A stretch of DNA of 40,966 nucleotides from a virus (Duplodnaviria; Caudoviricetes): positions 1 through 40,966 of the IMG/VR virus record IMGVR_UViG_3300032320_000653; one strand, 5' to 3'. The stretch's first letter is position 1. Every line of letters starts with the position of its first letter. Shown here piece by piece: positions 10,201 to 39,439 of the stretch. Position numbers and translations under genes: made by a program. The notes below the pieces were generated by a model. That model was given only the letters and a program-made list of their open reading frames with translations. It did not search any database and had not been told where the DNA came from.

Positions 10201-11781
10201 ATATCTTCCGCACTGATTCAGGTCGCGCAGCTACCGATTGTCGTGTACACCAATTTTGGTGGGAAGTACGGCTACGCCCAAACGGCTATTGAGATGACCA
10301 AGGCAATCGCTACCTTCTCATCCACAGGGTTTAGCCGTAAGGCAAGTACCACCGTGCCGCTGAATGGCTCGACGTTGAAAGAAGGCGAGAAAGGCGAGTC
10401 GATTACTATCCGTGGGTTGCCGTCCTTGGACAACGTGGACTTCGACAAGGTTCCAAAAGGTTCCCCGCTTAAATCGCTTGAAACACTAGCCCGAGTTGCA
10501 CGTAGCCAAAATGCTCTAGCGCGTTCTGGCTTGTATGATATTTTTGATGCGGGTCGCTCTGACGGAATAGTTGCACAGATGTCAGGTCTAGCCGGTCTGC
10601 CATTCCATATGATGGAGCGATTCAATCGACAGGTGTCGATGATCACCGCATACAACCTAGAGTTGAAGCGGCTCGATTCGGACAAGGCTACCGACGCCGA
10701 AAAGAAAATGTCTCAGCAGGAAAAGGAAGAGTTTGCAGCTAACCAAGCAATCTACCTGTCTGACTTGACCAACGGTGGCAACGGGCAAGAGACTGCATCA
10801 CTACTGTCCCGGCAAAGTGAGATCGGCCATGTCACGACAATGTACAAACGCTATGGCGCGTCCATGTACAGGTATTTGTTTAAGACGATGAAAACTGCAT
10901 ATGCGGATGCAGACCCACAAGAGCGTGCAATTGCCCAGAAACAGATCGTGGGTGTTGTCGGCATGTCTGCGTTGCTAGCCGGTGTGCAGGGTGTTCCGAT
11001 GTTTGACATCGCCGCTGCCGCTTACAACATGCTCAAAGATCCAGATGATGATGACTTTGAAACGGAAGTCCGCAAGGCTATCGGTGAGGCTTACTACAAG
11101 GGACTGCTTACTCACCTGACTGGTTCCGAGATCGGTTCGCGGATCGGCTTTAATGGGTTGCTGTATCGCGCTCCACGGTTTGCTCAGTGGTCCGATGATC
11201 CTATTAAAGCAGCGGTTGAGAGTCTGGGTGGTCCGGCCTTTGGTGTTGCCCAACGTATTTTTGATGGCGCTAAGAAAGTAGCGGAAGGGGAAGTCGAGCG
11301 TGGTATTGAGCAGATGCTGCCAACCTTCCTTTCTAACTTATTAAAAGCTAACCGCTACGCTACGGAAGGCTTTAAGACCCTGCGTGGTGACGAGGTATCC
11401 AAGCAAGCAAATGGGTACGAGGTCGCCATGCAGATGATCGGCTTCGCTCCGCAAAGTTATATGGAGCAGATTCAGCAAAACACCGCGCTTAAAGCCAAAG
11501 ACAAGTACGTCACAACGGAAAAGACAAGGTTGTTGCGGCAGCTATACGTAGCGATGCGCGAAAGTGATCAGCGTGAGTACGACGAGGTGATGGAGAAGTT
11601 ACTGAAACTCGGGGAGAAACATCCCGGCACTGTTACTGCTGACACAATCATCAGTTCGCTAAAGGCCAACGCCAAGACTTCGGCTGAGATGTTCCACGGT
11701 ATTACCTTAAGTAAGGCAATGCGTGCCGAGCTTATGGAAGATGCTTCGGAGTACAGCTTCTCTGATGACGAGCTAGATTAA
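4279..11781 (+). CDS. Giant internal virion / large polyvalent protein (zincin-like HExxH domain, PLxRFG-like C-terminal region)
   Basis: 2500 aa; Gly/Ala hydrophobic N-terminal helices, internal repeats, GYFDP...LLHEVTH...HEF (8566-8580) and YFPLVRKGKY (about 9604-9633); last gene of the + strand structural arm. Confidence 0.7.
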   Translation: MPIYSIQAPDGKTYDIEGPEGATRNQVIAAVQRQLRQQQPDRGMEEANRRYAEAQRRLAELSRPQVEPPKTTLFGAGKELIKGLVPGAVGLGESAATGLAALLPDEQERAVRSAVSGAAAPVKEFFKPAPGYEESVSRKFSEALGSTLPFLAAAPFTGGASLLGLGARAGIAGLGAAAGAGEARQMAEASGATKDERAIATLLGAPVGLLDMLLPELRYGKTMITRAAVSGGVEGATEAAQRIAQNAIAKYGYNPNQALLEGSGEEGAYGAGVGAVASLLMDAALGRKGKGAKPAAEEEEKKKPETLLLGNKPTPFTPVVFPDGSVATSPEDVAAYEKEHLKNKFSAAANQPAAPGIAGLLENKPFKPVVTPDGSVITTPEGVKAYEEEKYHARRQQEEEAKQQEEQAFRSKYAPVINQPGPAGLLENKPFTPIVYPDGSVATTPEQARQLDEGAYHQGRQQEEEAKQREEEAFRSKYAPVINQPPSGIAGLLEDKPATPFRPVVFPDGSVATTPEQLAQYEAQTKQREEEQFRQQYAPQPSDQALANQAEAQRLAAAGRGPRATGQPELPLQGGQVAQPRQAPPVLPKRTGSQGVLFPQTAAELARAKEIPARERQSLSFRINDALIKLTRNIPLSTEEIALLTQYGEEYNVSPEQLLTARVAGLEPAGARNAAPNTPVAPATGASTSVPSKPQANAAPAGTSAPASSAVATPATPAGPTGTGATAQPNPLSTDAETLAALKALVPADLHSKLDAANAETFAPPKAPKAPKVPKAPAATETAAPKPEAKKGTPEAEAKTEAKTEAPKVEKIETRRDAFTYGSPSNRTGTYTFVVLSDGSKHAIGRKTAQDGEMAGWHVLDGSLLEAIQNDPYDVSTWLGDNREAALKELPEEYQRRVLNRAKPETKTATAPKTPAAPAAPAATAPRPRTAKAQAKANLDAALSDLGDILGFTTAPATDTTTTPTGKGDLKKFDQAQKAKLIPTLVKLFDAALDMGMVTFKESVLHVKQAINARFGRDAVRAIFEQEGSQALIREAYDLHQEQRQERETAEAPEAEARQEIEEEETTGEEEAVSAWQELATPSARAFHDQISHAYRMYDAKEVGDETSQKADRAKVQGLLRKNRDNPQTNYFSKMQRLVDNLRNIAFDIAFPFGDRRAETKEGQIGEIIEVLGRYKRSVGETTPEANFFSGMGHDAAKKAAEWVYGNLSLPAQVKLQKMIAEYTAQNTAVGQAHFIQTILDRGRGRADNAKDEQKFQEGVLEAKKDEDIDEALAKVERSRDIRAAEARIKEENRKANELEQLREKVEREKKKRKTEDEVLDAIFGPAGAFIKKFSQDMSARLGLPLHPAVQGMLMDGNLKGALDHLAVNNGNVTGKIAGFLSRTTGTTKVEVTDNLVDEAGKAIPGYFDPETNTVHLDSVRGMNAHVLLHEVTHSALSHELDNPSSPHTRQITKLFNDLKPLLGDLYAAQDVHEFTSEAWSNMAFRQRLNSITVSGEKQTAWDRFTNKVGNWLRSKVGLETKPLEETALSAADRLIETIMSPSPETRNVGVLYKAAATGTGAKVVAKAFGDYGKFSTRRPGAARNAMQFYQSAKEGFFNGLYRFADLQTLVDVAKGKVPEAQKVLDTIRAKARYQDESIRALKPVVSKAANWAKGASAETYERFNKVVYGSTLSQVDPTNPRSTYEKSSDPKKAKNFDPEKLKEYDRIKPDYDALKDSGGQEIYKLMRNAYRELYKKIEDEIGNRIDDAVKDKDAAKKLKENIFKKLVDRGGLEPYFPLVRKGKYRLSYNADGEVYIEHFENKADRDAAIKELNEMGATEISPFLSISEKTYRKAPPSSFVNQILTTMEAQKVDPAVIESVIDLYLNTMPETSFARAFHARQGTLGFKQDAVAAMQEKVFSTSAQIANIKYSSILGKLDTELQESLKKKQTDEDAVYLGQQLRDHISESMNPTQLSTASRLAAGATYAYTLGFNISSALIQVAQLPIVVYTNFGGKYGYAQTAIEMTKAIATFSSTGFSRKASTTVPLNGSTLKEGEKGESITIRGLPSLDNVDFDKVPKGSPLKSLETLARVARSQNALARSGLYDIFDAGRSDGIVAQMSGLAGLPFHMMERFNRQVSMITAYNLELKRLDSDKATDAEKKMSQQEKEEFAANQAIYLSDLTNGGNGQETASLLSRQSEIGHVTTMYKRYGASMYRYLFKTMKTAYADADPQERAIAQKQIVGVVGMSALLAGVQGVPMFDIAAAAYNMLKDPDDDDFETEVRKAIGEAYYKGLLTHLTGSEIGSRIGFNGLLYRAPRFAQWSDDPIKAAVESLGGPAFGVAQRIFDGAKKVAEGEVERGIEQMLPTFLSNLLKANRYATEGFKTLRGDEVSKQANGYEVAMQMIGFAPQSYMEQIQQNTALKAKDKYVTTEKTRLLRQLYVAMRESDQREYDEVMEKLLKLGEKHPGTVTADTIISSLKANAKTSAEMFHGITLSKAMRAELMEDASEYSFSDDELD
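5197..5900 (+). repeat. Four imperfect ~50-67-aa repeats (LLENKPFxPVVxPDGSVATTPE...FRSKYAP) within the giant protein
   Basis: PDGSV(A/I)T(S/T)PE occurs four times in the translation with conserved flanks. Confidence 0.9.
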
Positions 11782-15932: not shown

Positions 15933-16226
15933 TCAAAGGTTTACGTCAACATTATCTTCAGCAAAAAAATCAAGTACAAGCTGTTCCATCTCAGGACTAA
16001 GCTCGGCCTTGGGCGGGGGCGGGGGCGGCAAGGGATCGGGTTCCGGTACTGACTTCTGTGGTTTGAAGTGGTTGATGATCGCGTCCTTGTCGAATCGGTA
16101 AGTATTGCCGATCTTAACGTATGTGTCACCCGGAATAAGTCCTGTCCGAACCCAACTCCTTACCGTCGTAACCGACACGGTGAGCGTCCGTGCTAGATCT
16201 TCGATTGGTACAAATCGCAACGTCAT
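15933..16226 (-). CDS. Excisionase/MerR-like helix-turn-helix protein
   Basis: IEDLARTLTVSVTTVRSWVRTGLIP...KIGNTYRF matches the Xis/HTH_17 pattern. Confidence 0.8.
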   Translation of the reverse strand: MTLRFVPIEDLARTLTVSVTTVRSWVRTGLIPGDTYVKIGNTYRFDKDAIINHFKPQKSVPEPDPLPPPPPPKAELSPEMEQLVLDFFAEDNVDVNL

Positions 16227-21433: not shown

Positions 21434-21991
21434 TTAAATCATCAGTGGGCCGTTGAGCCACAAAGTTGCTGAGTACCTTACACCTCGTGTGACAGGTGTA
21501 ACCTTGTGCATTAGTTCGCTAGGAAATGCGACTATAGACCCCCGTTTGCGTGAAGCAGGGATTTTTTGTGTAAAGTCCAGTATCAAATCCCCACCCTCGT
21601 AATCGTCAGGGTTAGATAATTGCATGACAACCGATACCTTGCGGTGTTTGCCTTTCTCTTTGTTAAAAAACTCTTCGTCTCTATGCCAGTCGTAATGCCC
21701 ACCAATTAAGTATTCGCCAACCTGTGTTTGTTCAGATGTCTCAATGTCAAAACCCCAAACACCCTTAAAGTTAGCAATTAGTCCGTGCGTAAAAAGAAGT
21801 AATGTAATTGACGCTTGTTCTGGAATCCAACATAATCTTGCTTTACGGTGCTCATGTATAACTTGATTTGTGATATCGCCAATCTTTGCGTCCATTACAT
21901 TGGTTGAATTACGGAAATGATCAATAATTTCTTGGCATTTATCGGATTGAATGCACTGATCAAACTGCCATATCCTGGATTTGTATTTCAT
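21434..21991 (-). CDS. 2OG-Fe(II) oxygenase (prolyl-hydroxylase/PKHD-like)
   Basis: YDWHRD, RKVSVVMQL, YEGGDL, FPS..MHKVTPVTRGVRYS; ATG at 21991 overlaps the upstream stop. Confidence 0.92.
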   Translation of the reverse strand: MKYKSRIWQFDQCIQSDKCQEIIDHFRNSTNVMDAKIGDITNQVIHEHRKARLCWIPEQASITLLLFTHGLIANFKGVWGFDIETSEQTQVGEYLIGGHYDWHRDEEFFNKEKGKHRKVSVVMQLSNPDDYEGGDLILDFTQKIPASRKRGSIVAFPSELMHKVTPVTRGVRYSATLWLNGPLMI

Positions 21992-22134
21992 CAAAATAAT
22001 CCTTCTGGTACGTTGGATATATCCAACTTGGGTTTACGTTTGCGCTTGATTTTCTGCACGATGTGCGGGTATGGCGGCATATGCCAGACCCACCGTACTA
22101 CATTGCCTTCGTCGTCAAGGATTCCGTATCTCAT
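21991..22134 (-). CDS. Small hypothetical protein (47 aa)
   Basis: Manually translated: MRYGILDDEGNVVRWVWHMPPYPHIVQKIKRKRKPKLDISNVPEGLF*; fills the gap and overlaps both neighbours. Confidence 0.65.
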   Translation of the reverse strand: MRYGILDDEGNVVRWVWHMPPYPHIVQKIKRKRKPKLDISNVPEGLF

Positions 22135-25389: not shown

Positions 25390-25425
25390 GTGTGGTAGGT
25401 AACTGGCATCTAAATATGGATGGTG

Positions 25426-25713
25426 TTAGGGAGTCCCTAACAGGATTGAATAAACTGAATCGACGTTCTCCTCGTTAATAACTAGGGCTATCCCCCCAGT
25501 CAATATGATCTGCTCAAGATTAAGGGCCTGTAATGGGGTCGGCTTGTTGGTCCCGGCCTTGCACTCAATCCCAAAAAACTTTCCCTTGTAACAGCCTACT
25601 ATGTCAGGCACACCGGACCGGCCATACCCCCCGGTGACGGGGTAGAAGTAATAGGCGTCCAACAACTTTAATTGCTGGACTACCTTCTTCTTGACCTTAG
25701 CCTCGGGAGTCAT
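25426..25713 (-). CDS. VRR-NUC domain nuclease (putative Holliday junction resolvase)
   Basis: TPEAKVK, GVPDI, GIECKA, PTPLQ, GGIALVI. Confidence 0.9.
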   Translation of the reverse strand: MTPEAKVKKKVVQQLKLLDAYYFYPVTGGYGRSGVPDIVGCYKGKFFGIECKAGTNKPTPLQALNLEQIILTGGIALVINEENVDSVYSILLGTP

Positions 25714-26090
25714 ACACCTACGAAATCACGCACACGTTCCCATAACGTGAGCTTGCGAGGGGGAGAGGCTTGCTCCGTAACCGTAAACACATACGTAGGG
25801 GGGTGGGGGTATGGGTATGCGTTATGCGCGGGGTCGGGCAGTGGCACAAACGGAACTTGATCCGTCCCTACTACTTTCTTCTTCCTCAAGCTACCAATAC
25901 CCGCCGCTTTATTGTCTTGCCAGCGAACGTGATACACGTAGTTAGCTGATACCTTAGCCTTGGCCGCGATCTCGGCAACGGGCATACCCATACCCAATAA
26001 CTTACGCACTCTAGTCGCCTTGGTCTGGCGCTTGTATGCGCGCTTCGGCTTGGTTGCTACTACTTCTGTCTGTTCATTTGTCGTGTTCAT
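25710..26090 (-). CDS. Putative HTH DNA-binding protein
   Basis: KATRVRKLLGMGMPVAEIAAKAKVSANYVYHVR; start at ATG 26090. Confidence 0.6.
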   Translation of the reverse strand: MNTTNEQTEVVATKPKRAYKRQTKATRVRKLLGMGMPVAEIAAKAKVSANYVYHVRWQDNKAAGIGSLRKKKVVGTDQVPFVPLPDPAHNAYPYPHPPTYVFTVTEQASPPRKLTLWERVRDFVGV

Positions 26091-26326
26091 TTGTGTACCC
26101 AAAAAATATGTTCTTCGATTCGTCGTCCTAATCCTGCCACGTCTATTGTGGGTGGCTTAGATGAGAACGTGCTTAGTACGTGCAGCTTATCCTGCACCCA
26201 TTTCGGCAATGCTTCTATTGATTCATATACACCTTCCTGTAGTGGATCCATGTCAAGGGCATAACAAAGGGACTCCACGTGGGCATGTCCCTTGTCATCG
26301 AATTCAACTCGATAAGTTATTGTCAT
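26087..26326 (-). CDS. Hypothetical protein similar to the C-terminus of the upstream 353-aa protein
   Basis: LPKWVQDKLHVL...VAGLGRRIEEHIFWV; ATGA overlaps. Confidence 0.7.
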   Translation of the reverse strand: MTITYRVEFDDKGHAHVESLCYALDMDPLQEGVYESIEALPKWVQDKLHVLSTFSSKPPTIDVAGLGRRIEEHIFWVHK

Positions 26327-27384
26327 GTAGTGCTATCGCTCTCCAGTTCCTCAATGTAAAACAAATTATTTGCAACCTTGTACCCGATGTTTGGCACGTA
26401 CTGGTTAATGTCTAGCGTGTCAGCCACAGCCAACTTGCCAAGCAACCACGCCGGAACCTCGTGCTCTGCAATCCAAGTCGTAAGCGTCATGTTCTTGTCC
26501 TCCCACGTCGCATCCGGCATAGTCCACACACCGTTATGTTCAACATGTGGGATACGTGCCCCTTTATATGTAGGACCGCGCTCCTTTACTTGGACGTACA
26601 CGCACCACGTCACCTTACAACGATTTGCTGCTTGAGCGTATTCTTTTTTGCGTTCTGCCACCATTTTAATATTCTCGTACCACGTCACATCCTCGGGCTT
26701 GCGATCACTCTCGGCCTGTCCGTTCAAGTAAACTTCCAATGCGGGTAGCGTAGTAGATACTAGCTGGTCGGTGATGCGGTTCAGCTCCGAAACCTCTAGC
26801 CTGTTATAACCATGCTTACCAAACAAAGAGATTACCCGCGCCTCTCGCAAGTTATGATCTGCCAAGTCAACATCAACTTCTTGGTGTCTTATCAGACCCT
26901 CCCTGAAGTGCTTGCCCATCTCTAAGGCATTGTGCTGTAGCAGGTACGTGTTGGCATTTACAATTGCTACGTCTAACTTTTCTGTAGCAACCATTAGATG
27001 TTGGGCTTTGTCCTTGGTGAACTTGTTGTTGGCAATGCGACGGGACGCAATCGTATATCGGTTCCGGCCTTCCCCCTTCACTGATCCCCAAGCACCGTAG
27101 CCGATTACGCCACGTGCAAACGGTTCGCCCTCGTAGTACACGTATACGTACGCATAGGGACCATCTGATTTAGGGAAGTATGGGAGAAACTTCGCACTCT
27201 TACTCTGGCGTTTGAATGCACGGACGAATTCGCAGGTACGGGTGTGTGCGTTGAACGTACCAAGCTCAGTCGTTATCCAATGTCCGTCCATTGGTAATGC
27301 CGGTGTAGATGCAAAGTAGATCTTGGCTTGCCGCTCGATATCTTCCACTCTCATCCACAATGCTGCTTCTAATGCTGTCGTCAT
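26323..27384 (-). CDS. Hypothetical early protein
   Basis: 353-aa ORF preceded by the palindrome and the ACCTTGGAG leader. Confidence 0.8.
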   Translation of the reverse strand: MTTALEAALWMRVEDIERQAKIYFASTPALPMDGHWITTELGTFNAHTRTCEFVRAFKRQSKSAKFLPYFPKSDGPYAYVYVYYEGEPFARGVIGYGAWGSVKGEGRNRYTIASRRIANNKFTKDKAQHLMVATEKLDVAIVNANTYLLQHNALEMGKHFREGLIRHQEVDVDLADHNLREARVISLFGKHGYNRLEVSELNRITDQLVSTTLPALEVYLNGQAESDRKPEDVTWYENIKMVAERKKEYAQAANRCKVTWCVYVQVKERGPTYKGARIPHVEHNGVWTMPDATWEDKNMTLTTWIAEHEVPAWLLGKLAVADTLDINQYVPNIGYKVANNLFYIEELESDSTT

Positions 27385-27441
27385 GTCATTACTCCAAGGT
27401 TGTTAGGGACGCCCTAACAAGGCGTCCACTTATCTATTTAA

Positions 27442-27624
27442 TTACAACGTAACCGGCTCAGTCTGCTCGACCTCAATCACATAGCCCAATCGTTTGATCA
27501 AGTCGATGGTCATTGAAGTCAGGGTCGAATGCCCTGCAATACGGGCAAACAACTTAGCATCATCACACACAGGGTATACGGTACGGTTCCCGTATACGTT
27601 CCTCACTCTGACTACTATCTTCAT
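27442..27624 (-). CDS. Small hypothetical phage protein
   Basis: Start moved to ATG 27624 (SD GGAGG); VRNVYG...YPVC..AKLFA.IAG..TLT...IKRLGY. Confidence 0.75.
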   Translation of the reverse strand: MKIVVRVRNVYGNRTVYPVCDDAKLFARIAGHSTLTSMTIDLIKRLGYVIEVEQTEPVTL

Positions 27625-27625
27625 C

Positions 27626-27865
27626 TCATGGCCTCCCATCTTTGCCAACCCAACCCATGCCAACGTAATCACTAGGATCTTCGTGGTAGTGAGCATTCAA
27701 CACCATGTGTACGCTATAGGCGTTGCCGCTCCTACTCATACCCTGTGCTTCTGCATACGCATGGGCCTCCTTCTCGTCATCGAATAACCCGTACACCTGC
27801 ACGGGTTCGTGCTTGAAGAAATTTAAGATCACCCACTTGCCTGTTTCTTCACTGTTCTCGTTCAT
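27626..27865 (-). CDS. Hypothetical protein
   Basis: 79 aa, SD GGAGG. Confidence 0.65.
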   Translation of the reverse strand: MNENSEETGKWVILNFFKHEPVQVYGLFDDEKEAHAYAEAQGMSRSGNAYSVHMVLNAHYHEDPSDYVGMGWVGKDGRP

Positions 27866-27866
27866 C

Positions 27867-28019
27867 TCACACCTCCGTTGCGTCTAGTTCAGCAACCGCG
27901 TCCTTCACCATCTGCGGTGTCAGTGCGACTAGCCAGTCTGTTACCATGTCCAGATACGCTGGGTTCTCTATCAAGAACACCAACTCGTAACGTATTACTT
28001 TGCGTTTATCTTCGTCCAT
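27867..28019 (-). CDS. Small hypothetical protein (50 aa)
   Basis: Start at ATG 28019 after SD GGAGGT, 1 nt after the vWA gene stop. Confidence 0.6.
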   Translation of the reverse strand: MDEDKRKVIRYELVFLIENPAYLDMVTDWLVALTPQMVKDAVAELDATEV

Positions 28020-28020
28020 C

Positions 28021-29361
28021 TCACACCTCCACATGTACGGTGCGGCCCACGGTCGGAGTCGCACTCGGGTTATCTGCAATCGCCCACACCACGGGACAGG
28101 GCCACGTACCCCATCCGGCATAGAGATCACCATCTGTTAAGACAATCGCAACGTCGGGCTTGATCCCATACTGTTGCATGTACTGTGTTACGCAGTTCAC
28201 ATCCGTACCCCCGCCACCCTTGGGCTTAGTACACTTGACGATATCCTGCACCTCACTACCTCGATACACCTCCTCACTACATACCTCCGTGTCCCAGTAG
28301 ATGACACGTACTACTTCTGGCTTGATAGCTGCTGCAATCTTCGCCATTTCCCCCAGAAAGACAGACTGCAAGGAATCTCCGATACTGCCTGACATGTCAT
28401 TTGCAATGACCATCTCCTTGATGGTCTGACTGTACGTGCTAGGCATATACACGTCCTCCATCTCGCCATTGACCTCGACCTGCTGACCCATGAACCTACG
28501 GTTGGGACGCACCCACGTCTGATACTCAGTACCCGGACACATAGCCGTAAGGATCTCGCGCAACTCGTCTTCCCACCGGACCTTGGACTGCAAGATGTCC
28601 TTGATCACACGACTACCACCCGTCCCTGCTTTGCTAGCCATAAGCTCAGTCTCACGCAAGGCCGTGTCGATCTGCTCCGCTAGTTCCTCTTGCTCCTGCT
28701 TGGTTAGTTCTTGGGCACCTTCCCAATCGTGCTCGTCGAACCCTTGTTGCTTGTCCTTATGCTTGGGCTTGCTTGGTTTGCCTTGTCCGGGTTGTGTTTG
28801 CCCCCCGTCCTCGCCGTCCTCTCCATCCATGTCTTGCTCGCCATCGCTTGGCTTGCCGCTATCTTGTTCATTACTTGGAGTGCCTTCATCCGTCCCTTCG
28901 GCATCTTCTTGCTCCTGTTCTTGCTCCTTGCGAAGCAACTTGTAGATTTGCTTGCTGTTCAAGCCAGCGAACCGCTCGTCCAACATCCCGCCCTTGGGCA
29001 TCACGATCCACCCATCCGTACCGTAGTCGTTGGTCAACCACAAATTAAGATAGTAGTCACAAGCACGGTTGGCACAATCGGGGTCCTCCTCGTGAAGCTC
29101 TGACCAAGTAGTCAGATGTTGCAACATCTTGTGCCCCACCTCGTGCATGATCAGGAACCGCAACTCGGGATCGGACAGAGACTTGACGAACGCCCGCCCA
29201 TACCACTCGTCCCGGCCATTCGTTCGTGCAGTCGGGCAGTCCTCGACTACCTCCTTCTTACCGATCTGTAAGACACCACGGAACTCGGGTGCTTTCTCAA
29301 GGATGTCACCGCACGCCTTCTTGACGCGCTGCTCCTCAGTTAGTTTAGCGAAGATACTCAT
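28021..29361 (-). CDS. DUF2201-type HExxH metallopeptidase-like domain + vWA domain protein
   Basis: PTARTNG, HEVGH, NRACD, acidic linker, MIDAS DMSGS, GGGGTD, LTDG. Confidence 0.88.
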   Translation of the reverse strand: MSIFAKLTEEQRVKKACGDILEKAPEFRGVLQIGKKEVVEDCPTARTNGRDEWYGRAFVKSLSDPELRFLIMHEVGHKMLQHLTTWSELHEEDPDCANRACDYYLNLWLTNDYGTDGWIVMPKGGMLDERFAGLNSKQIYKLLRKEQEQEQEDAEGTDEGTPSNEQDSGKPSDGEQDMDGEDGEDGGQTQPGQGKPSKPKHKDKQQGFDEHDWEGAQELTKQEQEELAEQIDTALRETELMASKAGTGGSRVIKDILQSKVRWEDELREILTAMCPGTEYQTWVRPNRRFMGQQVEVNGEMEDVYMPSTYSQTIKEMVIANDMSGSIGDSLQSVFLGEMAKIAAAIKPEVVRVIYWDTEVCSEEVYRGSEVQDIVKCTKPKGGGGTDVNCVTQYMQQYGIKPDVAIVLTDGDLYAGWGTWPCPVVWAIADNPSATPTVGRTVHVEV

Positions 29362-29434
29362 GTCATTACTCCTTGGTTGTTAGGGATTCCCTAACTGGGT
29401 ATCCCTTCGTGTTGTTTAGTTTAGTCGTGTTCTG

Positions 29435-30541
29435 TTACTGATCCTTACGGAGCATGTAAGCATTCTTCAATGCCCATGCCGTATACCCGGGGCTTGTGAC
29501 CACGATTTGCTGCCGCTTCTCGTCATACGACTTGGCAGTCACACCCTTGCTGAACATCGCCTGCTCTTCCTCGGGCAAGCGTCCAAGGTATGTCATCCAA
29601 GGATCAATGAACTCACGGTCCACCATGCCCAACACTTTCGTGATGATCATGCACCGTACTGCCTGAGACGTAGGAACCTTGGCAGTCATTGGGTCTGCTT
29701 TAATGGATGCAATGGTCGGCATCTGCTGACTTGTCTTGTACCAAATCAGTAGGCCAGCGGCGGCATCGGGTCCGAAAGTGCCTGTCAACGCAGCAATAAG
29801 GGTTTGCTGATCGATAAGATCGGGGTTCTCCTCTGCTTCAATGAGGATGTCAGATGCAGCATGGATAGAGCGACCCGTACAGAACGATTCGCGTTGCTGT
29901 TTTGGGTGAAAGATATACGGGTTATCTTTCGGGTCCTTGACCTCATCGAAGTCGGCGAACACTTGGGGCGTCTCGTTTACCCACCTCGTAACAGCAGGGT
30001 GAATACCCGCATTGATTGCGAAGTGCTCGATCCACTCCTCTGCTGTAGAGGTGCGGGTTTCAATGATTATGATTCGATTCCTAGCATGGGCAGGAATCAA
30101 GTCACCGAGTCCTTCGCTTGCCTTGTTAGTGGTAGCAAACAAGATGGTGTCCTTGTGCAACTCGATACCACCCGGGCCGATACGCTCAAGCATCAGACGA
30201 AGCATGCCCTTGAGCACCCCCGGGTCGGCCTTGCCGAGTTCGTCGATCATGAGTATGAGGGGTTTACGCAAGTGGAGGCCAAGCTCCTCGTGAGGTACGA
30301 ACGTAACGTACCCTTGTGAGTCAATGCTTGCCATGCGAGGCATAGACAAGTCCCCGGGCATCTTGGTGGTGCAATCGAAATACACCATCAGGTGGTTGGG
30401 GTAACGCTTGCCAAGCGTTTTCAGGGTTGACGATTTGCCCGAACCCATCGGGCCGCGCAGGAGGACCGTGCGCTTCTTGCCCATTACGGCGATGAAGTTA
30501 GATGCTTGCAGAAGGGAGAGCTTGTTAGCGAAAGCGTTCAT
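29435..30541 (-). CDS. MoxR-like AAA+ ATPase
   Basis: Walker A GPMGSGKS, Walker B MIDE, sensor-1 ATTN, ARNR; start at ATG 30541 after CCTTGGAG; adjacent to the vWA gene. Confidence 0.88.
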   Translation of the reverse strand: MNAFANKLSLLQASNFIAVMGKKRTVLLRGPMGSGKSSTLKTLGKRYPNHLMVYFDCTTKMPGDLSMPRMASIDSQGYVTFVPHEELGLHLRKPLILMIDELGKADPGVLKGMLRLMLERIGPGGIELHKDTILFATTNKASEGLGDLIPAHARNRIIIIETRTSTAEEWIEHFAINAGIHPAVTRWVNETPQVFADFDEVKDPKDNPYIFHPKQQRESFCTGRSIHAASDILIEAEENPDLIDQQTLIAALTGTFGPDAAAGLLIWYKTSQQMPTIASIKADPMTAKVPTSQAVRCMIITKVLGMVDREFIDPWMTYLGRLPEEEQAMFSKGVTAKSYDEKRQQIVVTSPGYTAWALKNAYMLRKDQ

Positions 30542-30631
30542 GTGAAACTCCAAGGTAAAAATAAATATAAGTAAGCAAACAAGGAACAAACAGGGAGTTT
30601 GTTAGGGACTCCCTAACCCAAAACAAAACAA

Positions 30632-31549
30632 TCAATTAAAGTCAATGCTCGGCAGATCACGGATGATCTGATCGACACCACGCTTCACGTCATCACGCAC
30701 TAGCGGGTCGTGCTTCAACGCATCGACCGAAACACCATCGAGCATGTCCTCGATCTTGCGTCGCAAGCTCGCAATCTGGGAGTCTTCGCCTAGACCGAAG
30801 ATGTCAGCCATAGGCAGGATGTCCAAGACATTGGACAAGATGTTGCTGTGCATGCGCTTGCCGTTAGACTTCTCGCCCTCGGGTGCAGGGACAAGTTTGG
30901 ATGAGATGTTAGATAGAGCGGCGACAAGACGGTCCTTGAAGTCGCCTACCATGTTGCCGATAAGCTCCTGATAGTGCCGCTCGTACTGCTCCTTTTGCTC
31001 GACCAACGCTTGGTTGTTGATGTCGATGCGCCAGTCACCCGCTTCGGGCATGTTGCACGTACGAATCTCAATGCTGAACTTGCGACGCATCTCGTCCAAG
31101 CTGAAGTAGTCTGCCGCGTTGTACAGGTCACCGAGTTTGATCGGTGCTTGCGACAACTCCCACTCGTACACGTCGAAGAACGCTTCGCACAGGCGCTTGT
31201 GCTCGGCAAGCTCGGGGTCCATCTTGTCCATGTAACGTGTTAGCCCCATCGTAGGCATAGCGCGAAGCTCGCCCATCCAGTCGAACGTCAACTCGTAGTG
31301 CAACAAGCGAGCACGTGCAATGTGCTTCTTGATAGCGTCAAGCTCCGCGCAGTTGGGGAGCAACTTCTTGCTCACAGTTGCCGAACCGGTTTCGGCATTG
31401 TTTCTGGACGTTACGTCTGCCGTAGCAGACTTATCCTTGACAGTACCCTGCCAGTAGCTAGCCTTGAAGATCACCAACATCCCGCTCCGTGCGAGGGAAG
31501 GGAATTTAACGTCGGCGGGTTTCGCAAGGGTCATATTCAAACAGTTCAT
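30632..31549 (-). CDS. DUF3150-like protein
   Basis: MLV...SYWQG..KD...SKKLL pattern, helical C-terminus, position next to the MoxR/vWA pair; start at ATG 31549. Confidence 0.55.
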   Translation of the reverse strand: MNCLNMTLAKPADVKFPSLARSGMLVIFKASYWQGTVKDKSATADVTSRNNAETGSATVSKKLLPNCAELDAIKKHIARARLLHYELTFDWMGELRAMPTMGLTRYMDKMDPELAEHKRLCEAFFDVYEWELSQAPIKLGDLYNAADYFSLDEMRRKFSIEIRTCNMPEAGDWRIDINNQALVEQKEQYERHYQELIGNMVGDFKDRLVAALSNISSKLVPAPEGEKSNGKRMHSNILSNVLDILPMADIFGLGEDSQIASLRRKIEDMLDGVSVDALKHDPLVRDDVKRGVDQIIRDLPSIDFN

Positions 31550-31566
31550 ATCAAGCTCCAAGGTTT

Positions 31567-31670
31567 GTTAGGGTTTCCCTAACTTGATTTCGTTTCGTCG
31601 GTCTGTCCAGTGGGCGAATTCCCACTGAACATATATTATACCACAGTCTGTCGTGAAAGTCAATGTTTCC
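31567..31670 (-). repeat. ~100-bp promoter-hairpin-palindrome direct repeat, copy B
   Basis: 36-nt identity (31608-31643 vs 32153-32188), 16-nt identity (31655-31670 vs 32200-32215) and a shared palindrome. Confidence 0.92.
31635..31663 (-). promoter_or_regulatory. Strong sigma70-type early promoter (copy B)
   Basis: TTGACT (31663-31658), 17 bp, TATAAT (31640-31635) with extended TGn. Confidence 0.9.
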
Positions 31671-31813
31671 TAACGGATAGGTAAAAAGACACACTTACCC
31701 ACATCGCACCCACCGAGCAATCCTTCAAGGAACAGGATGCCCAACAGGGTGACGAGAGCGTAAGCGGCAGTTACTAGCACCAGCATCTTGGCGAACTCTT
31801 TCCATGTATTCAT
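31670..31813 (-). CDS. Small putative membrane protein (47 aa)
   Basis: Manually translated: MNTWKEFAKMLVLVTAAYALVTLLGILFLEGLLGGCDVGKCVFLPIR*; SD AGGAG; one hydrophobic helix. Confidence 0.7.
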   Translation of the reverse strand: MNTWKEFAKMLVLVTAAYALVTLLGILFLEGLLGGCDVGKCVFLPIR

Positions 31814-31849
31814 TGCGTTACTCCTAGTTGGTTAGATGGTTAGGGTGAA

Positions 31850-32086
31850 TTAAAGAGTGGGTATGAACTTGGGGTTGAGTTGCTTGAGCATGGTGCGGTC
31901 GCTGATAAGCATGTAGTTGGATTTGGACATCGGTGCGACCGTGAAATTCACGGCGTTCGCCAACTCCTCCCCGCATGGGAGGCAAGTGCGGTATCCGATT
32001 GCCTTGCGCTTGGGCGAGAAGTTGTCGCCGCATACACGGCAGACGGGACGGATTTTGAACTCGGTGTTCTTAACTGCGTTTTTCAT
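31850..32086 (-). CDS. C4 zinc-finger protein (loosely DksA/TraR-finger-like)
   Basis: CRVCG...R...CLPC (C-x2-C-x15-C-x2-C); ACCTTGGAG leader. Confidence 0.75.
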   Translation of the reverse strand: MKNAVKNTEFKIRPVCRVCGDNFSPKRKAIGYRTCLPCGEELANAVNFTVAPMSKSNYMLISDRTMLKQLNPKFIPTL

Positions 32087-32116
32087 AATTACTCCAAGGT
32101 TTGTGTTGCATGTCTT

Positions 32117-32215
32117 GTTAGGGATTCCCTAACTTGGTTTCGGTCGTTGTCTCAGTGGGCGAATTCCCACTGAACATATATTATACCATACTATGGTACG
32201 AAAGTCAATGTTTCC
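32117..32215 (-). repeat. ~100-bp promoter-hairpin-palindrome direct repeat, copy A
   Basis: Matches 31567-31670 as described for copy B. Confidence 0.92.
32180..32208 (-). promoter_or_regulatory. Strong sigma70-type early promoter (copy A)
   Basis: TTGACT (32208-32203), 17 bp, TATAAT (32185-32180) with extended TGn. Confidence 0.9.
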
Positions 32216-32376
32216 AGATGGGGTGTTCAGTTCTGTTATCAGGGGTGGTGTGGGTGTTGAGTTTCTTGAAGTACGTATGCACCTTTCGTGATTTGGGGTG
32301 GTAGCGGTGTGTGGTTTGGTGATAGCTATGTGGTGTCGGAGTAGACTGTTCCATACTGTTCCGTTGGGGGGGTCTG

Positions 32377-32389
32377 CAAGTCCTTGATT
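32377..32389 (-). promoter_or_regulatory. IHF consensus site
   Basis: - strand AATCAAGGACTTG fits WATCAANNNNTTR, with an A/T-rich 5' flank. Confidence 0.5.
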
Positions 32390-32704
32390 TTAAATATTGT
32401 TCCAATATCGCAAAAGTTCGTTTCATAGGAGCGGGATCTTGGGAAAAAGTTGTGGAGGGTGAAAAGCGAACATTGCCCGGGGGTGGGGGGCAGCGGCGTC
32501 CCGTAGTCAAAAGTACCTCTACGTCAAACCGAACTTTCAGTACAATATAGTTTAGTTTAGTTTATTATCTATTTATATTCAAAAAACGGGTGATTTCCTG
32601 CAATTCCCACACCACCACTAAGTCGGATTTGTCACGAAACATATTGTTCCTGATGTGTTCGTTTTTTGGTTTTGGAAACCGAACAGTTGCCGTGGTGGGC
32701 GACC

Positions 32705-32886
32705 CGCTGCTCTTGTAACTGGCTTCACTTTGTTAGGGCGTTCCCTAACAAAAAATGAAACAGCGTTCCACTTACACCTGACTGTCAGAAACCACATAAG
32801 CCATACCACATAGCTGTCACTAAACCACACATGGGCGGCACGCTGCTCTTGTAACTGGCTTCTTTTTTGTTAGGGAGTTACCTAAC
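32705..32886. repeat. Direct repeat CGCTGCTCTTGTAACTGGCTTC, each copy followed by a palindrome
   Basis: Exact 22-mer at 32705-32726 and 32841-32862. Confidence 0.92.
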
Positions 32887-32951
32887 ATAGTTAGTAGTAG
32901 GCTCGGCCCTGTTAGGGAATCCCTAACACGACATGCACAAAAGTGCAGACG

Positions 32952-32978
32952 AAAAAAAAACCCCGACCGAAGCCGGGG
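32952..32978 (-). terminator. Intrinsic terminator (second of a tandem pair)
   Basis: CCCCGGC-UUCG-GUCGGGG followed by U9. Confidence 0.9.
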
Positions 32979-32996
32979 TGTGCGAAAACGCGGACG

Positions 32997-33021
32997 AAAA
33001 AAAACCCGCCGAAGCGGGTTT
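32997..33021 (-). terminator. Intrinsic terminator (first of a tandem pair)
   Basis: CCCGC-UUCG-GCGGG followed by U8. Confidence 0.9.
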
Positions 33022-33040
33022 GAAGGTAGAGCGTAGGATG

Positions 33041-33253
33041 TTAGCTGCGTGCGGGTTTTTCAATTTTGATTTCGTCGTTTGATTTCCAAACTTGTGCCAC
33101 TAGTTTTTCGTCTGCGTCGTCAACGGTGACGGTGATAACCGGACCGGATGCGGTGAACCGAACCGAATACTTTCGTTCTGCGGTTCCGAATTTACTGACT
33201 GCGCGACTCATGAGTGTGACCAGATCGTCGGTGTGGCGGTGAATGTGATACAT
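33041..33253 (-). CDS. Small hypothetical early protein
   Basis: 70 aa, CCTTGGAG leader, followed by the double terminator. Confidence 0.7.
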   Translation of the reverse strand: MYHIHRHTDDLVTLMSRAVSKFGTAERKYSVRFTASGPVITVTVDDADEKLVAQVWKSNDEIKIEKPARS

Positions 33254-33268
33254 GTTAACTCCAAGGGT

Positions 33269-33295
33269 AAAAAACCCGGGACCACGTGGCCCCGG
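33269..33295 (-). terminator. Intrinsic terminator after the first early gene
   Basis: CCGGGGCC-ACGU-GGUCCCGG followed by GUUUUUU. Confidence 0.75.
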
Positions 33296-33320
33296 AGAAT
33301 GTTAGGGAATCCCTAACAGG

Positions 33321-33815
33321 TTAGATTGCGGACTTGGCGGACTTCAGACTTGCGACTGCTTTCGCAGGATCAGCGATCCCGTTTTCCGTTTTCTGGATCT
33401 GCTCGATCAGATCCTCGATCTTCTTGCGAAGCCGGTCTCCGACTGTTGTCGTCTGACGTGGTGTCGAGTCTTCGGCTTTTTCGCGCCGAACGAGAGCGGC
33501 TTTCAGATCCTTGATCTTCGATCCGATCTGTTGTTGCCAATAACGCTTGGTCATTTTCTTCCCTTCGTCGAGCGACTTGGTGTCAGTCGCAAGCAGGGTT
33601 TGAATCGTGGCGCTGAATCCGAGGATGATCGCGGGTTTCAATTCACCATCGTAGAAGGAACGATCAGCACCCTTAGCAGGGGCATCGAGCATTTCGGACG
33701 TGATAGCGTCGGCGCGAAGATTGTCGACGGCGCGAACCCGATCTCGATCATTCCCAACGGACGACGACACGAACTTGGTGACGGACTCGACGGACTTAGT
33801 GGACATGCGTGCCAT
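33321..33815 (-). CDS. First gene of the early arm, helical hypothetical protein
   Basis: Start moved to ATG 33815 after ACCTTGGAG; 164 aa; a palindrome lies on each side. Confidence 0.8.
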   Translation of the reverse strand: MARMSTKSVESVTKFVSSSVGNDRDRVRAVDNLRADAITSEMLDAPAKGADRSFYDGELKPAIILGFSATIQTLLATDTKSLDEGKKMTKRYWQQQIGSKIKDLKAALVRREKAEDSTPRQTTTVGDRLRKKIEDLIEQIQKTENGIADPAKAVASLKSAKSAI

Positions 33816-33865
33816 GATGGATTCTCCAAGGTTGGCATTAGATGTTAGGGGACTCCCTAACATCA

Positions 33866-33922
33866 GCAGACGTGCGTCGTCTGCATGTGATTAGTTATAC
33901 GGAAGACCGCCCACAATCGCAC
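33866..33922 (-). promoter_or_regulatory. Putative first early promoter with 5' hairpin
   Basis: -10-like TATAAC (33899-33894), weak -35 GTGCGA at 17 bp, then hairpin GCAGACG-N5-CGTCTGC (33866-33884), palindrome and leader; same order as promoters A and B. Confidence 0.45.
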
Positions 33923-33979
33923 CCCATTCAGCCGATTTATTTTTGTTCTACTTCACGGTACGATCCGTCCTCGGCGCTC

Positions 33980-34025
33980 GGCTGGTCGGGCTGGCTGGCT
34001 GGTCGGGCTGGCTGGCTGGTTGGCT
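33980..34025 (+). repeat. GGCT-rich tandem repeat (17-mer x2.7)
   Basis: GGCTGGTCGGGCTGGCT at 33980 and 33997, plus partial GGCTGGTTGGCT at 34014. Confidence 0.9.
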
Positions 34026-34180
34026 AGGGGGGCCGGTCGAGTCGAATGGGTAGGATGGCAGACCCACCGGAGTGGTATCACCCCCTTTACGATATAGGGT
34101 CCACCCCCCGCGCAGACGTACTATTTCAGAAGAACGAAGACCTACTTTTTGAAAACACCCCCCTACCAAAAAACATACCC

Positions 34181-34209
34181 TTGCAAAAAATTTTTTATTA
34201 TGTTATATC
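34181..34209 (+). promoter_or_regulatory. Possible promoter for the packaging/head operon
   Basis: TTGCAA, 17 bp AT-rich spacer, TGn-TATATC; the -10 lacks the conserved last T. Confidence 0.35.
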
Positions 34210-34238
34210 TGCGATACCGGCTGCTATAGCTTGCGATT

Positions 34239-34811
34239 ATGCTTATAACCCCTGACATCGGCGTAGAGATTACGCCCGAAATAAATTTTTCCAACCTGCA
34301 AGACCTTGCGGAATTCGGTGCTAACACCGCTGAATTGCTGCATAAGAATGGGTTGGAGCTAGATTCCAAGCCAGAGCACGCCGAGATAGCTGCTCAGATT
34401 GCTACTGCTTACGCCGCAGATCCTATGGGTACTGCCAAGCAGATCACCCCATCGCGTGCAGCATCCCTGCCCCCTGCTGTCTTAATACAAACACGCGACA
34501 TACTTGATACTTTTGGGCGTGCAGTTGTCAGACAAGCTATTGAAGTACGCCATCTTGTTACCAACAAGCTCATCCTTGAGTCGGAAAACCCTGATCCGAA
34601 GGTACGAATACGTGCATTAGAGTTGTTAGGGAAGATTTCGGATGTGGGTCTGTTTACTGAGCGTACTGAAATAACCGTAACCCACCAATCTACAGACGAT
34701 CTACGCACCAAACTGCGGGAGAAGTTCAATCGGCTCAAAGAAGTTGAGGACGCCAAGGTGGTTTCGCCCTTGGAACTAGAATTGGACGAGGAATTGGGCC
34801 TAAATGGGTGA
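34239..34811 (+). CDS. terS: Putative terminase small subunit
   Basis: 190 aa directly upstream of and overlapping terL; RIRALELLGK..DVGLFTER.E motif. Confidence 0.7.
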   Translation: MLITPDIGVEITPEINFSNLQDLAEFGANTAELLHKNGLELDSKPEHAEIAAQIATAYAADPMGTAKQITPSRAASLPPAVLIQTRDILDTFGRAVVRQAIEVRHLVTNKLILESENPDPKVRIRALELLGKISDVGLFTERTEITVTHQSTDDLRTKLREKFNRLKEVEDAKVVSPLELELDEELGLNG

Positions 34812-38880: not shown

Positions 38881-39078
38881 GTGGCTAAAACCGTCTTTGA
38901 CGTGCTGATTGAAAAGATAGAAGCGCATAAAACCGCTGCTATGGAATCACTTGTATCCGGTGGAGCTAAAGACTTTGCCGAATATAAAGCGGCGTGCGGG
39001 ATCATTCGAGGTCTGTCCCTTGCACGTATGGAAATCCAAGACCTTTCGCGTACTTTTATGGATGACGATGATGAGTGA
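38881..39078 (+). CDS. Small head-region protein
   Basis: 65 aa, GTG start, G.AKDFAEYK..CGIIRGL; between portal and GroES-like gene. Confidence 0.75.
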   Translation: MAKTVFDVLIEKIEAHKTAAMESLVSGGAKDFAEYKAACGIIRGLSLARMEIQDLSRTFMDDDDE

Positions 39079-39439
39079 TAACTACACTGTGACTGACGAA
39101 GAATTGGAAGCTCAACTACCGGTTCCCGTTGGATACAAGCTGCTGATTGCCCTGCCGACTATTGAAGACACGTATGACTCAGGACTTGTCAAAGCCGAGA
39201 ATACGAAACATGTCGAACAAGTCTTATCAATGATTGGACTCGTATTGGACATGGGGCCACAAGCCTATTCTGATCCTGAGCGGTATCCGAACGGTCCTTG
39301 GTGTGAAGTCGGAGACTACGTATTGTTCCGCACTAATACTGGTACGCGGTTCCGTTTCAATGGCACGGAATACCGTCTTATGAACGACGACTCGATTGAG
39401 GCAGTTGTTTCCGATCCACAAGGCATTACAAGGGCTTAA
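39071..39439 (+). CDS. groES: GroES/Cpn10-like co-chaperonin
   Basis: PVGYKLLI, SGLV, VLDMGP, VGDYVLF, GTEYRLMNDDSIEAVV; true start is 39062, 39068 or 39071. Confidence 0.85.
   Translation: MSDNYTVTDEELEAQLPVPVGYKLLIALPTIEDTYDSGLVKAENTKHVEQVLSMIGLVLDMGPQAYSDPERYPNGPWCEVGDYVLFRTNTGTRFRFNGTEYRLMNDDSIEAVVSDPQGITRA

What the first reader, a model, noticed from the sequence alone, without database searches (positions are those of the whole stretch)
25425..33861. Eleven GTTAGGG-N3/4-CCCTAAC palindromes punctuate only the early arm
Seen: copies at 25425, 27402, 29379, 30601, 31567, 32117, 32732, 32869, 32911, 33301 and 33844. I noticed none elsewhere in the window. The arms are nearly invariant while the centre varies in sequence and length (AGT, ACG, ATT, ACT, TTT, ATT, CGTT, AGTT, AAT, AAT, GACT). 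Ten are intergenic, and six lie in 5' leaders upstream of an SD. Inference: tolerance of 3- or 4-nt centres fits a hairpin read in RNA or ssDNA (processing, stabilising or protein-loading site) better than a rigid dimeric operator. However, the invariant arm sequence implies sequence-specific recognition. Alternatives are operator sites, loading sites that protect or pull in the first-injected DNA, or cassette boundaries for gene shuffling.
Basis: partly seen in the sequence, partly recalled or inferred. Interest (0 to 1): 0.85.

Follow-up and report, generated by a model that had tools for sequence, protein, structure and literature searches.

The report
Swappable operator code of aquatic phages
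Eleven copies of one short DNA palindrome mark only the early genes of an uncultured freshwater phage, and close relatives carry a different palindrome at the same places when their first early gene is of a different type, so the copies are likely docking sites for that gene's product, a small helical protein of no known family that would throttle early transcription.

Summary
In detail: 10 exact copies plus one with a single mismatch, all within 25425-33861, none in 100 shuffles. The window is a 66%-complete phage distantly related to HTVC023P and MinM2. The array is a family trait: 36 of 47 early arms carry one, against 0 of 97 late arms. Its spelling is lineage-specific.

Centre bases that cannot pair in a hairpin are still symmetric (129 of 146), G-U is not preferred, and asymmetric centres face both ways.

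Among close relatives the spelling follows one gene, the first early gene g1 (33321-33815): AUC 0.97 against 0.34-0.73 for eleven other genes. Phages 98-100% identical in ATPase and TerS differ in g1 and in their sites. g1 folds as a two-domain helical protein with no clear structural match.

Site centres never fall on sigma-70 promoter cores (0 of 114), so I infer a stoperator-like roadblock. Binding, dimer formation and repression are untested. A residue-to-base code is suggested but not significant after tree control.

The parts
33844..33861 (.). Palindrome copy (4-nt centre) in the 5' leader of g1, between its putative -10 box and its SD
33894..33899 (-). Putative -10 box (TATAAC) of the g1 promoter; weak -35; inferred
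   Evidence: same box in L182 and L184
33321..33815 (-). g1, first early gene, 164 aa, all-helical, hypervariable; proposed reader of the palindromes
33301..33317 (.). Palindrome copy 3 nt after the g1 stop codon
33275..33296 (-). Terminator-like hairpin after g1
32960..33021 (-). Two further terminator-like hairpins (33021-33002, 32979-32960) separating g1 from the early promoters
32911..32927 (.). Palindrome copy in the gene-free stretch
32869..32886 (.). Palindrome copy with one mismatch and 4-nt centre; the same variant is kept in L182 and L183
32732..32749 (.). Palindrome copy (4-nt centre) in the gene-free stretch
32180..32208 (-). Near-consensus sigma-70 promoter (TTGACT-17-TATAAT)
32117..32133 (.). 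Palindrome copy about +41 to +57 from the inferred start of that promoter, upstream of the SD of 31850-32086
31635..31663 (-). Second near-consensus sigma-70 promoter, a near copy of the first cassette
31567..31583 (.). Palindrome copy downstream of the second promoter, upstream of 30632-31549
30601..30617 (.). Palindrome copy between 30632-31549 and the MoxR-like ATPase gene; no promoter-like match nearby
29379..29395 (.). Palindrome copy between the ATPase and the DUF2201 VWA/metallopeptidase gene; removed by a 39-bp skip in contigs of three runs
27402..27418 (.). Palindrome copy upstream of 26323-27384
25425..25441 (.). Last palindrome copy, overlapping the stop codon of the VRR-NUC-like endonuclease gene
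34239..34811 (+). Putative small terminase gene (assigned from its place before TerL), divergent from g1; bounds the array

Best explanation
The eleven palindromes are likely double-stranded DNA binding sites for the product of the phage's first early gene (g1, 33321-33815), which is predicted to bind as a dimer and would act as a roadblock that turns down host-RNA-polymerase transcription of the early arm. Shown: the array, its confinement to the early arm, its dyad symmetry, its lineage-specific spelling, the fixed place of a g1-family gene beside it, and the joint change of g1 type and site spelling among close relatives. Inferred: g1 is transcribed on its own from a sigma-70 promoter and stopped by the terminators behind it; the long helix 84-116 of the N-terminal domain reads each half-site; the C-terminal helical hairpin (125-163) joins two subunits through a flexible linker that allows 17- or 18-bp spacing; bound dimers just downstream of the strong early promoters and at gene junctions halt or slow elongation. 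Each g1 type would act only on its own site spelling. I put the g1-site pairing at about 0.8 and the roadblock function, given the pairing, at about 0.65.
For: Family trait: 36 of 47 early arms vs 0 of 97 late arms hold 3 or more copies of one palindrome, and 42 of 47 have a g1-family ORF in the slot (some contigs repeat earlier ones); 55 of 71 in the first set. DNA dyad: complementary centre positions that a hairpin cannot pair, 129 of 146 (would leave a 2-nt loop), 64 of 125 (1-nt loop), 55 of 146 (no loop), against about 25% by chance; arm mismatches G-U 19 vs A-C 25; asymmetric centres in both orientations in 22 of 44 cases. Co-switching: over 100 pairs from four close groups (27 loci), identity separates same-site from different-site pairs with AUC 0.97 for g1 and 0.34-0.73 for eleven other genes. 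L206/L209 vs L207/L208: TerS 98-100%, ATPase 98-100%, g1 13-23%, unrelated sites; at one junction only a patch of about 50 bp is exchanged inside 93-99% identical flanks. L184 (TerL 99%, ATPase 88% to the window) has seven TTCGGG-type sites at matching places and a g1 of 21-26% identity. In 18 kb of L207 every other early gene has a 67-100% match in L206's genome, g1 none. g1 is flanked by sites (upstream 50 of 56, downstream 47 of 56). The columns most associated with site bases lie in helix 84-116; D/E103 goes with CC in 21 of 26 vs 3 of 30, K/R103 with G in 11 of 13 vs 9 of 43. Geometry: no site centre within -45..+15 of 34 g1 promoters or 80 internal promoters; 69 of 80 internal promoters have a site at +35 to +127.
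Against: No binding or expression data. g1 has no clear match to a known DNA-binding fold: best Z 5.7; 13 of the top 50 rows are sigma-factor entries aligned to residues 47-112, which is only suggestive. Over all 52 loci site similarity correlates more with TerS (rho 0.41) than with g1 (0.31), and site classes need 29 changes on the g1 tree vs 30 on TerS or TerL trees, so the g1 signal comes from close pairs only. Those 100 pairs are not independent (about five separate switches) and I assigned site classes by hand. Exceptions: L184 vs L257 differ by one base per arm at 66% g1 identity; L189 vs L191/L193 share a site at 28%. The residue-103 rule was picked after a scan and is not significant under tree control (median p 0.06-1). 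g1 lies inside the array, so linkage contributes. Switch pairs were compared over 18-40 kb, not whole genomes. The site nearest g1 usually lies upstream of its promoter, and three window copies lie in a gene-free stretch, which a roadblock does not explain. No integrase or ParA in 5 of 5 near-complete relatives, so no lysogenic state is evident that would need a repressor.
Confidence: 0.55

Rival explanations
1. g1 binds the sites as DNA, but the job is not transcription control: it coats, loops or tags the first-entering part of the genome (protection from nucleases, organisation, replication or recombination start, self-marking among co-infecting phages).
For: Same co-switching evidence. Sites avoid promoter cores entirely, cluster in a gene-free stretch, and one lies upstream of the g1 promoter next to a G-rich tract. 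In the possible source run, contig depth is 66 over 32159-34568 against 40-46 on either side, a weak hint of a genome end here. The Cluster O authors also doubted a transcriptional role for their palindromes (PMC4351075).
Against: 69 of 80 internal promoters have a site 35-127 nt downstream and sites sit at gene junctions rather than at even intervals, which ties them to transcription units. The genome end is not mapped.
Confidence: 0.2
2. g1 is a positive regulator: bound upstream of its own promoter it activates, and at downstream sites it loads onto RNA polymerase as an antiterminator, like lambda N/nut or Q (recalled).
For: First early gene followed by three terminator-like hairpins; 30 sites lie -45 to -125 from g1 promoters; weak likeness to sigma region 4.
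Against: No helical phasing of the upstream sites (R 0.18, p 0.37); the early promoters are already near consensus and lie downstream of the terminators; ten sites are more than a loading mechanism needs.
Confidence: 0.1
3. The element acts as an RNA (or ssDNA) hairpin read by g1: processing site, 5' stabiliser or translational operator.
For: The palindrome folds as a stem in 5 of 7 window contexts folded, fully in 4; many copies lie 20-40 nt before a start codon.
Against: Symmetry in unpairable positions, no G-U bias, free orientation of the centre; in 2 of 7 contexts the best fold breaks the stem; in most relatives the first site lies upstream of the g1 promoter and would not be in its transcript; g1 has no invariant column; no Rfam match.
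Confidence: 0.08
4. The copies are recombination or cassette boundaries (PeSL-like), spread by gene conversion, and g1 merely travels with them.
For: The two promoter cassettes are near copies; g1 is flanked by sites; recombination between palindromes is reported in Cluster O (PMC4351075).
Against: Gene losses in L181 and L183 end at 28012/27876 and 28017/27628, away from any site. The same site persists between phages with 50% TerS identity when g1 stays related, and the sites change as small patches while the genes between them stay 92-100% identical, which points to selection for a matching set.
Confidence: 0.05
5. Host repeat or host-repressor site.
For: None found.
Against: 0 of 401 genomes from the order of a Methylopumilus MAG hold a match (control pattern 8); in that MAG its own phage's site occurs on the phage contig only; near-identical phages carry different spellings. 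The true host is unknown.
Confidence: 0.02

Closest known systems
Stoperators and immunity repressor of Cluster A mycobacteriophages (L5, TipsytheTRex; PMC9283540, PMC6550527)
   Same: Many copies of a phage-specific site in short intergenic spaces; site motifs differ between lineages along with the repressor; proposed block of elongation.
   Different: Stoperators are 13-bp asymmetric, oriented with transcription, genome-wide, bound by a monomer with HTH domains, accompanied by operators on promoters, and serve lysogeny. Here the sites are 16-19-bp dyads, orientation-free, early-arm only, never centred on promoter cores, the candidate reader has no detected homology, and no integrase or ParA was found.
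17-bp palindrome TGTTCGG-N3-CCGAACA of Cluster O mycobacteriophages (PMC4351075)
   Same: 7-3-7 dyad, invariant arms, no orientation, enriched between genes of one arm, mostly away from promoters, proposed site for a dimeric protein.
   Different: 34 copies, many inside genes, one spelling in five close genomes, reader not identified. Here dozens of spellings occur and track one gene.
PeSL cassettes of T4-type phages (PMC2839356, abstract)
   Same: Repeated promoter plus stem-loop cassettes in a variable early region.
   Different: PeSL stem-loops are terminators and drive shuffling by recombination; these palindromes mostly lack a T run on the transcribed strand, keep exact sequence, and mapped gene losses do not end at them.
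Lambdoid cI/Cro operator types (PMC9283540 introduction for cI; the rest recalled)
   Same: About 17-bp dyads read by a dimer with N-terminal reading and C-terminal oligomerisation domains; type-specific pairs.
   Different: Lambdoid operators overlap promoters in two clusters; here about ten sites are spread over 8-15 kb and avoid promoter cores; g1 shows no cI-type HTH or peptidase domain in Pfam/PHROGs.

Membership tests
Cluster A stoperator system | Many sites in short intergenic spaces | tested here: met
   10 of 11 intergenic
Cluster A stoperator system | Asymmetric site oriented with transcription | tested here: not met
   Dyad sites; centres in both orientations in 22 of 44 cases
Cluster A stoperator system | Site motif varies with the repressor | tested here: met
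   g1 AUC 0.97 in close pairs; not seen at deep distances
Cluster A stoperator system | Repressor of the L5 gp71 HTH type | tested here: inconclusive
   No sequence match in Pfam, PHROGs or PDB; weak sigma-region-4-like rows, Z 4.1-5.7
Cluster A stoperator system | Temperate phage with integrase or ParAB | tested here: not met
   PF00589, PF00239, PF13614 absent from 5 of 5 relatives at 94-100% completeness; the window's own missing third not seen
Cluster A stoperator system | Repressor-dependent transcription stop | not testable with these tools
   Needs in vitro transcription or a reporter
Classical dimeric operator (cI/Cro type) | Dyad symmetry at DNA level | tested here: met
Classical dimeric operator (cI/Cro type) | Sites overlap the promoter core | tested here: not met
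   0 of 34 and 0 of 80 predicted promoters have a site centre within -45..+15; nearest -45.5 and -48.5
Classical dimeric operator (cI/Cro type) | Reader forms a homodimer | not tested
   The complex-prediction queue was full; no job ran
PeSL cassette | Stem-loop is an intrinsic terminator on the transcribed strand | tested here: not met
   No copy scored as terminator-like on the minus strand; two scored on the opposite strand
PeSL cassette | Gene gain/loss breakpoints at the repeats | tested here: inconclusive
   Two mapped losses are not at sites; no family-wide count made
Host REP / RAYT | Motif present in host chromosomes | tested here: inconclusive
   Not found in 401 genomes searched; host unknown
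Host REP / RAYT | Flanked gene is an HUH transposase (recalled feature) | tested here: not met
   g1 is all-helical with no invariant column and no conserved His

The most novel reading that the evidence does not exclude
A large family of aquatic phages without integrase carries a fast-diversifying identity code: a DNA-binding protein of a new fold and about ten matching sites that are rewritten together, so that each type silences only its own kind. It would give type-specific superinfection immunity or a repressed carrier state without integration, with several types coexisting in one lake population, and would supply hundreds of natural orthogonal protein-site pairs.
Probability: 0.3. Interest if true: 0.87.

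Novelty: new variant of a known kind. Interest (0 to 1): 0.72.

Why it matters
The family is large: about 1,900 stored stretches with a TerL relative estimated in IMG/VR and 697 g1-family clusters at 50% identity. How its early genes are controlled is not described in the papers I searched. Naming a candidate reader turns an unexplained repeat into a direct experiment, and natural pairs that differ only in g1 and its sites give built-in specificity controls. If type-specific silencing holds, it adds phage-versus-phage immunity types to a group that looks strictly lytic. It also shows ten dispersed sites being rewritten in step with one protein. A cultured distant relative, MinM2, has its own array.

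Tried and rejected
No family or structure for g1: Pfam, PHROGs on 51 members, ESM Atlas (only unnamed viral clusters), PDB sequences, Foldseek on PDB and BFVD, VIA-align (best Z 6.4 and 5.7, within the range of common helical arrangements). A homodimer prediction could not be run because the queue was full, so there is no result either way. Searching viral contigs with g1 itself found nothing, and its alignment was too variable to search with. Rfam: one chance-level match. No RNA holder listed among public runs, so no transcript ends. Helical phasing of sites relative to promoters: none. Tree-controlled test of the residue-103 rule: right direction, not significant. Integron attC (GTTRRRY/RYYYAAC, recalled): rejected, because the boxes are in the opposite order, the element is too short, no tyrosine recombinase was found, and other lineages use unrelated spellings. 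Telomere-like TTAGGG: coincidence, for the same reason. No repeated palindrome in the stretches examined of HTVC023P (1-22000), CRP-901 (30000-53013) or DSL-LC04 (8000-30000); the rest of those genomes was not examined. MinM2's first early gene was not recognised by my g1 profile (E 0.78). Literature searches without a description of this element; PMC9599517 and PMC11288001 have no mention of palindromes or inverted repeats in the main text. Subscription journals and supplements were not seen.


Full report
Observation. Ten exact copies lie at the stated places, with none in 100 shuffles. The eleventh, at 32869, has one mismatch, and no other site with 0-1 mismatches exists in the window. The fuller consensus is (T)GTTAGGGA-N-TCCCTAAC(A).

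Context. The window is a linear virus record, 66% complete. It encodes PolA, helicase, primase, exonuclease, TerL, portal, GroES and a 2,500-aa virion-type protein. Its portal is 38-45% identical to those of HTVC023P, HTVC027P, CRP-901, MinM2 and DSL-LC04. The sites span the minus-strand arm from the first gene next to the divergent terminase genes to the VRR-NUC-like gene. That arm holds two near-consensus sigma-70 promoters, and three terminator-like hairpins follow the first gene. 'Early' is inferred from this layout. The host is unknown; one relative (TerL 74%) is a 55-kb contig binned with a Methylopumilus MAG. Contigs from two freshwater runs align over the region.

Same motif elsewhere. 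A scan of viral contigs gave 206 matching stretches before it stopped. I examined 21 of the 176 loci, chosen for length or copy number; all 21 are relatives of this phage, with the sites in the same arm. In near-complete relatives the copies stay within one 2-15 kb stretch. None of 401 genomes from the candidate host order has a match.

Different spellings. Of 73 loci found with the ATPase, 4 carry the window's motif and many carry another repeated palindrome in the same arm, for example TTCGGGCA-N2-TGCCCGAA, TTTAGGGA-N2-TCCCTAAA, TTAGTC-N5-GACTAA and GTTATAGG-N2-CCTATAAC. In a TerL-anchored set, 47 of 157 loci had at least 2 kb of early arm: 36 of 47 hold three or more copies of one palindrome, against 0 of 97 late-arm stretches (some contigs repeat the first set). 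Cultured MinM2 has 14 copies of GGTTCAG-N-CTGAAC(C), 12 in its early arm and 2 on the late side.

DNA or RNA. In 46 de-replicated loci I defined sites by their outer arms only. Inner positions that a hairpin cannot pair are complementary in 129 of 146 (2-nt loop), 64 of 125 (1-nt loop) and 55 of 146 (no loop) cases, against about 25% expected; related genomes share centres, so these counts are not independent. Arm mismatches give G-U 19 times and A-C 25 times, and asymmetric centres occur in both orientations in 22 of 44 cases. The stem can fold in RNA, as any palindrome can, but the best fold breaks it in 2 of 7 window contexts. Among 29 loci with four or more GTTAGGG sites (several are the same contig), most use mainly one spacing with at most two of the other. 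I read the sites as DNA dyads.

The first ORF after the first site is hypervariable. After dropping 10 duplicates and 2 loci without an ORF from 83, an iterated profile joins 55 of 71 into one family, and 42 of 47 in the second set. For 100 pairs within four close groups, g1 identity separates same-site from different-site pairs with AUC 0.97; eleven other genes give 0.34-0.73. The clearest cases: L206/L209 vs L207/L208; L189 vs L195/L196 (TerL 97-99%, g1 24-26%); L190/L201 vs L191/L193/L202; L197/L218 vs L224; and the window vs L184/L257. Between L208 and L209 one site is exchanged as a patch of about 50 bp inside 93-99% identical DNA, and another is simply absent. Conversely, L001 and L014 share the window's site at 50% TerS identity and keep a g1 of 42-43%. 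Against this: over all 52 loci site similarity correlates better with TerS (0.41) than with g1 (0.31); tree-wide change counts do not favour g1 (29 vs 30); the pairs reduce to about five switches; classes were assigned by hand; and L184/L257 and L189/L191 are partial exceptions. The other candidates fail, and over 18 kb of L207 no other early gene lacks a close match in L206's genome. Whole genomes were not compared.

The protein. AlphaFold2 gives a confident all-helical model (pLDDT 90): a domain of residues 1-117 ending in a long basic helix (84-116), a lower-confidence linker, and a helical hairpin. No library names it, and fold searches give nothing clear. For the N-terminal domain, 13 of the top 50 rows are sigma-factor entries aligned to residues 47-112 at Z 4.1-5.7, which is inconclusive. 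In 56 de-replicated protein-site pairs (from 84, of which 73 passed the profile), the top columns by mutual information are 103, 98 and 100. D/E103 goes with CC in 21 of 26 vs 3 of 30, and K/R103 with G in 11 of 13 vs 9 of 43, which fits usual side-chain preferences (recalled). The rule was chosen after the scan, and independent-pair tests point the same way without reaching significance.

What it does. No site centre falls within -45..+15 of 34 predicted g1 promoters or 80 internal promoters (start sites assumed). The site near g1 usually lies upstream of its promoter, without helical phase, whereas 69 of 80 internal promoters have one 35-127 nt downstream. In the window's own clade the site lies in the g1 leader, which suggests autoregulation there. 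g1 would thus be made freely while downstream early transcripts meet sites after their promoters and at junctions. I therefore favour a roadblock over promoter occlusion. No tyrosine or serine recombinase or ParA was found in five near-complete relatives, so the purpose may be timed shut-off of early genes, exclusion of a same-type superinfecting phage, or a carrier state; all are inferred. One freshwater run holds contigs with L184-type and L257-type sites beside window-like sequence, and three runs hold a form lacking the 29379 site, so types appear to coexist. Frequent recombination within genes plus selection for a matching g1 and site set would give the patchwork seen (inferred).

Literature seen. 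PMC4351075: passages and part 2 of 7 of section 3. PMC6550527: passages. PMC9283540: abstract and introduction. PMC2839356: abstract. PMC9599517 and PMC11288001: term searches of the main text. Others: listings only. No supplements were read; they could mention such repeats. Earlier notes of this scan (8 of 14 shown) describe similar lineage-specific arrays in other phage genomes, mostly without an identified reader. They are unchecked and add no evidence, but the phenomenon is not unique to this window.

Verdict. A real, family-wide feature. It works like a stoperator or operator array but fails membership on symmetry, promoter overlap and lifestyle, so it is a new variant of a known kind with a candidate reader from an undescribed family. 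Interest 0.72.

Noticed in passing
window 32709-32866 (minus strand, just downstream of the 32869 and 32732 sites): A second repeated motif, GAA(A/G)CCAGTT..., follows two sites in the gene-free stretch and recurs in 15 of 56 relatives whatever their palindrome spelling; possibly a host-factor, origin or packaging element.
   Followed up: partly
window 32159-34568: Contig depth 66 against 40-46 on either side in the possible source run: a weak hint of a terminal repeat or packaging start around g1. A G-rich tract precedes the first site in many relatives.
   Followed up: no
window 32115-32215 and 31545-31670: Two near-identical cassettes: sigma-70 promoter, 5' hairpin, palindrome, SD.
   Followed up: partly
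window 28021-31549: Conserved early module of a 305-aa unknown, a MoxR-like AAA ATPase and a DUF2201 metallopeptidase/VWA protein; MinM2 has an annotated DUF3150, MoxR and VWA set in its early arm.
   Followed up: no
L184:12635: One leftover GTTAGGG-type site in a phage whose other seven sites are of the TTCGGG type, a likely trace of recent mosaic exchange.
   Followed up: no
L288 (MinM2, OQ594354.1 40000-65014): A cultured phage with its own 14-copy palindrome array and a 187-aa first early gene; two copies lie on the late side.
   Followed up: partly
401 genomes: The motif is absent while the reversed control pattern occurs in 8 genomes; possibly general avoidance of palindromes.
   Followed up: no
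window 4279-11781: 2,500-aa protein with a C-terminal match to a DarB-like antirestriction family and no Pfam domain.
   Followed up: no
window 15933-16226: Excisionase-like HTH conserved across the family although no integrase was found.
   Followed up: partly
window 21434-21994 and 38951-39439: 2OG-Fe(II) oxygenase and GroES-like genes.
   Followed up: no
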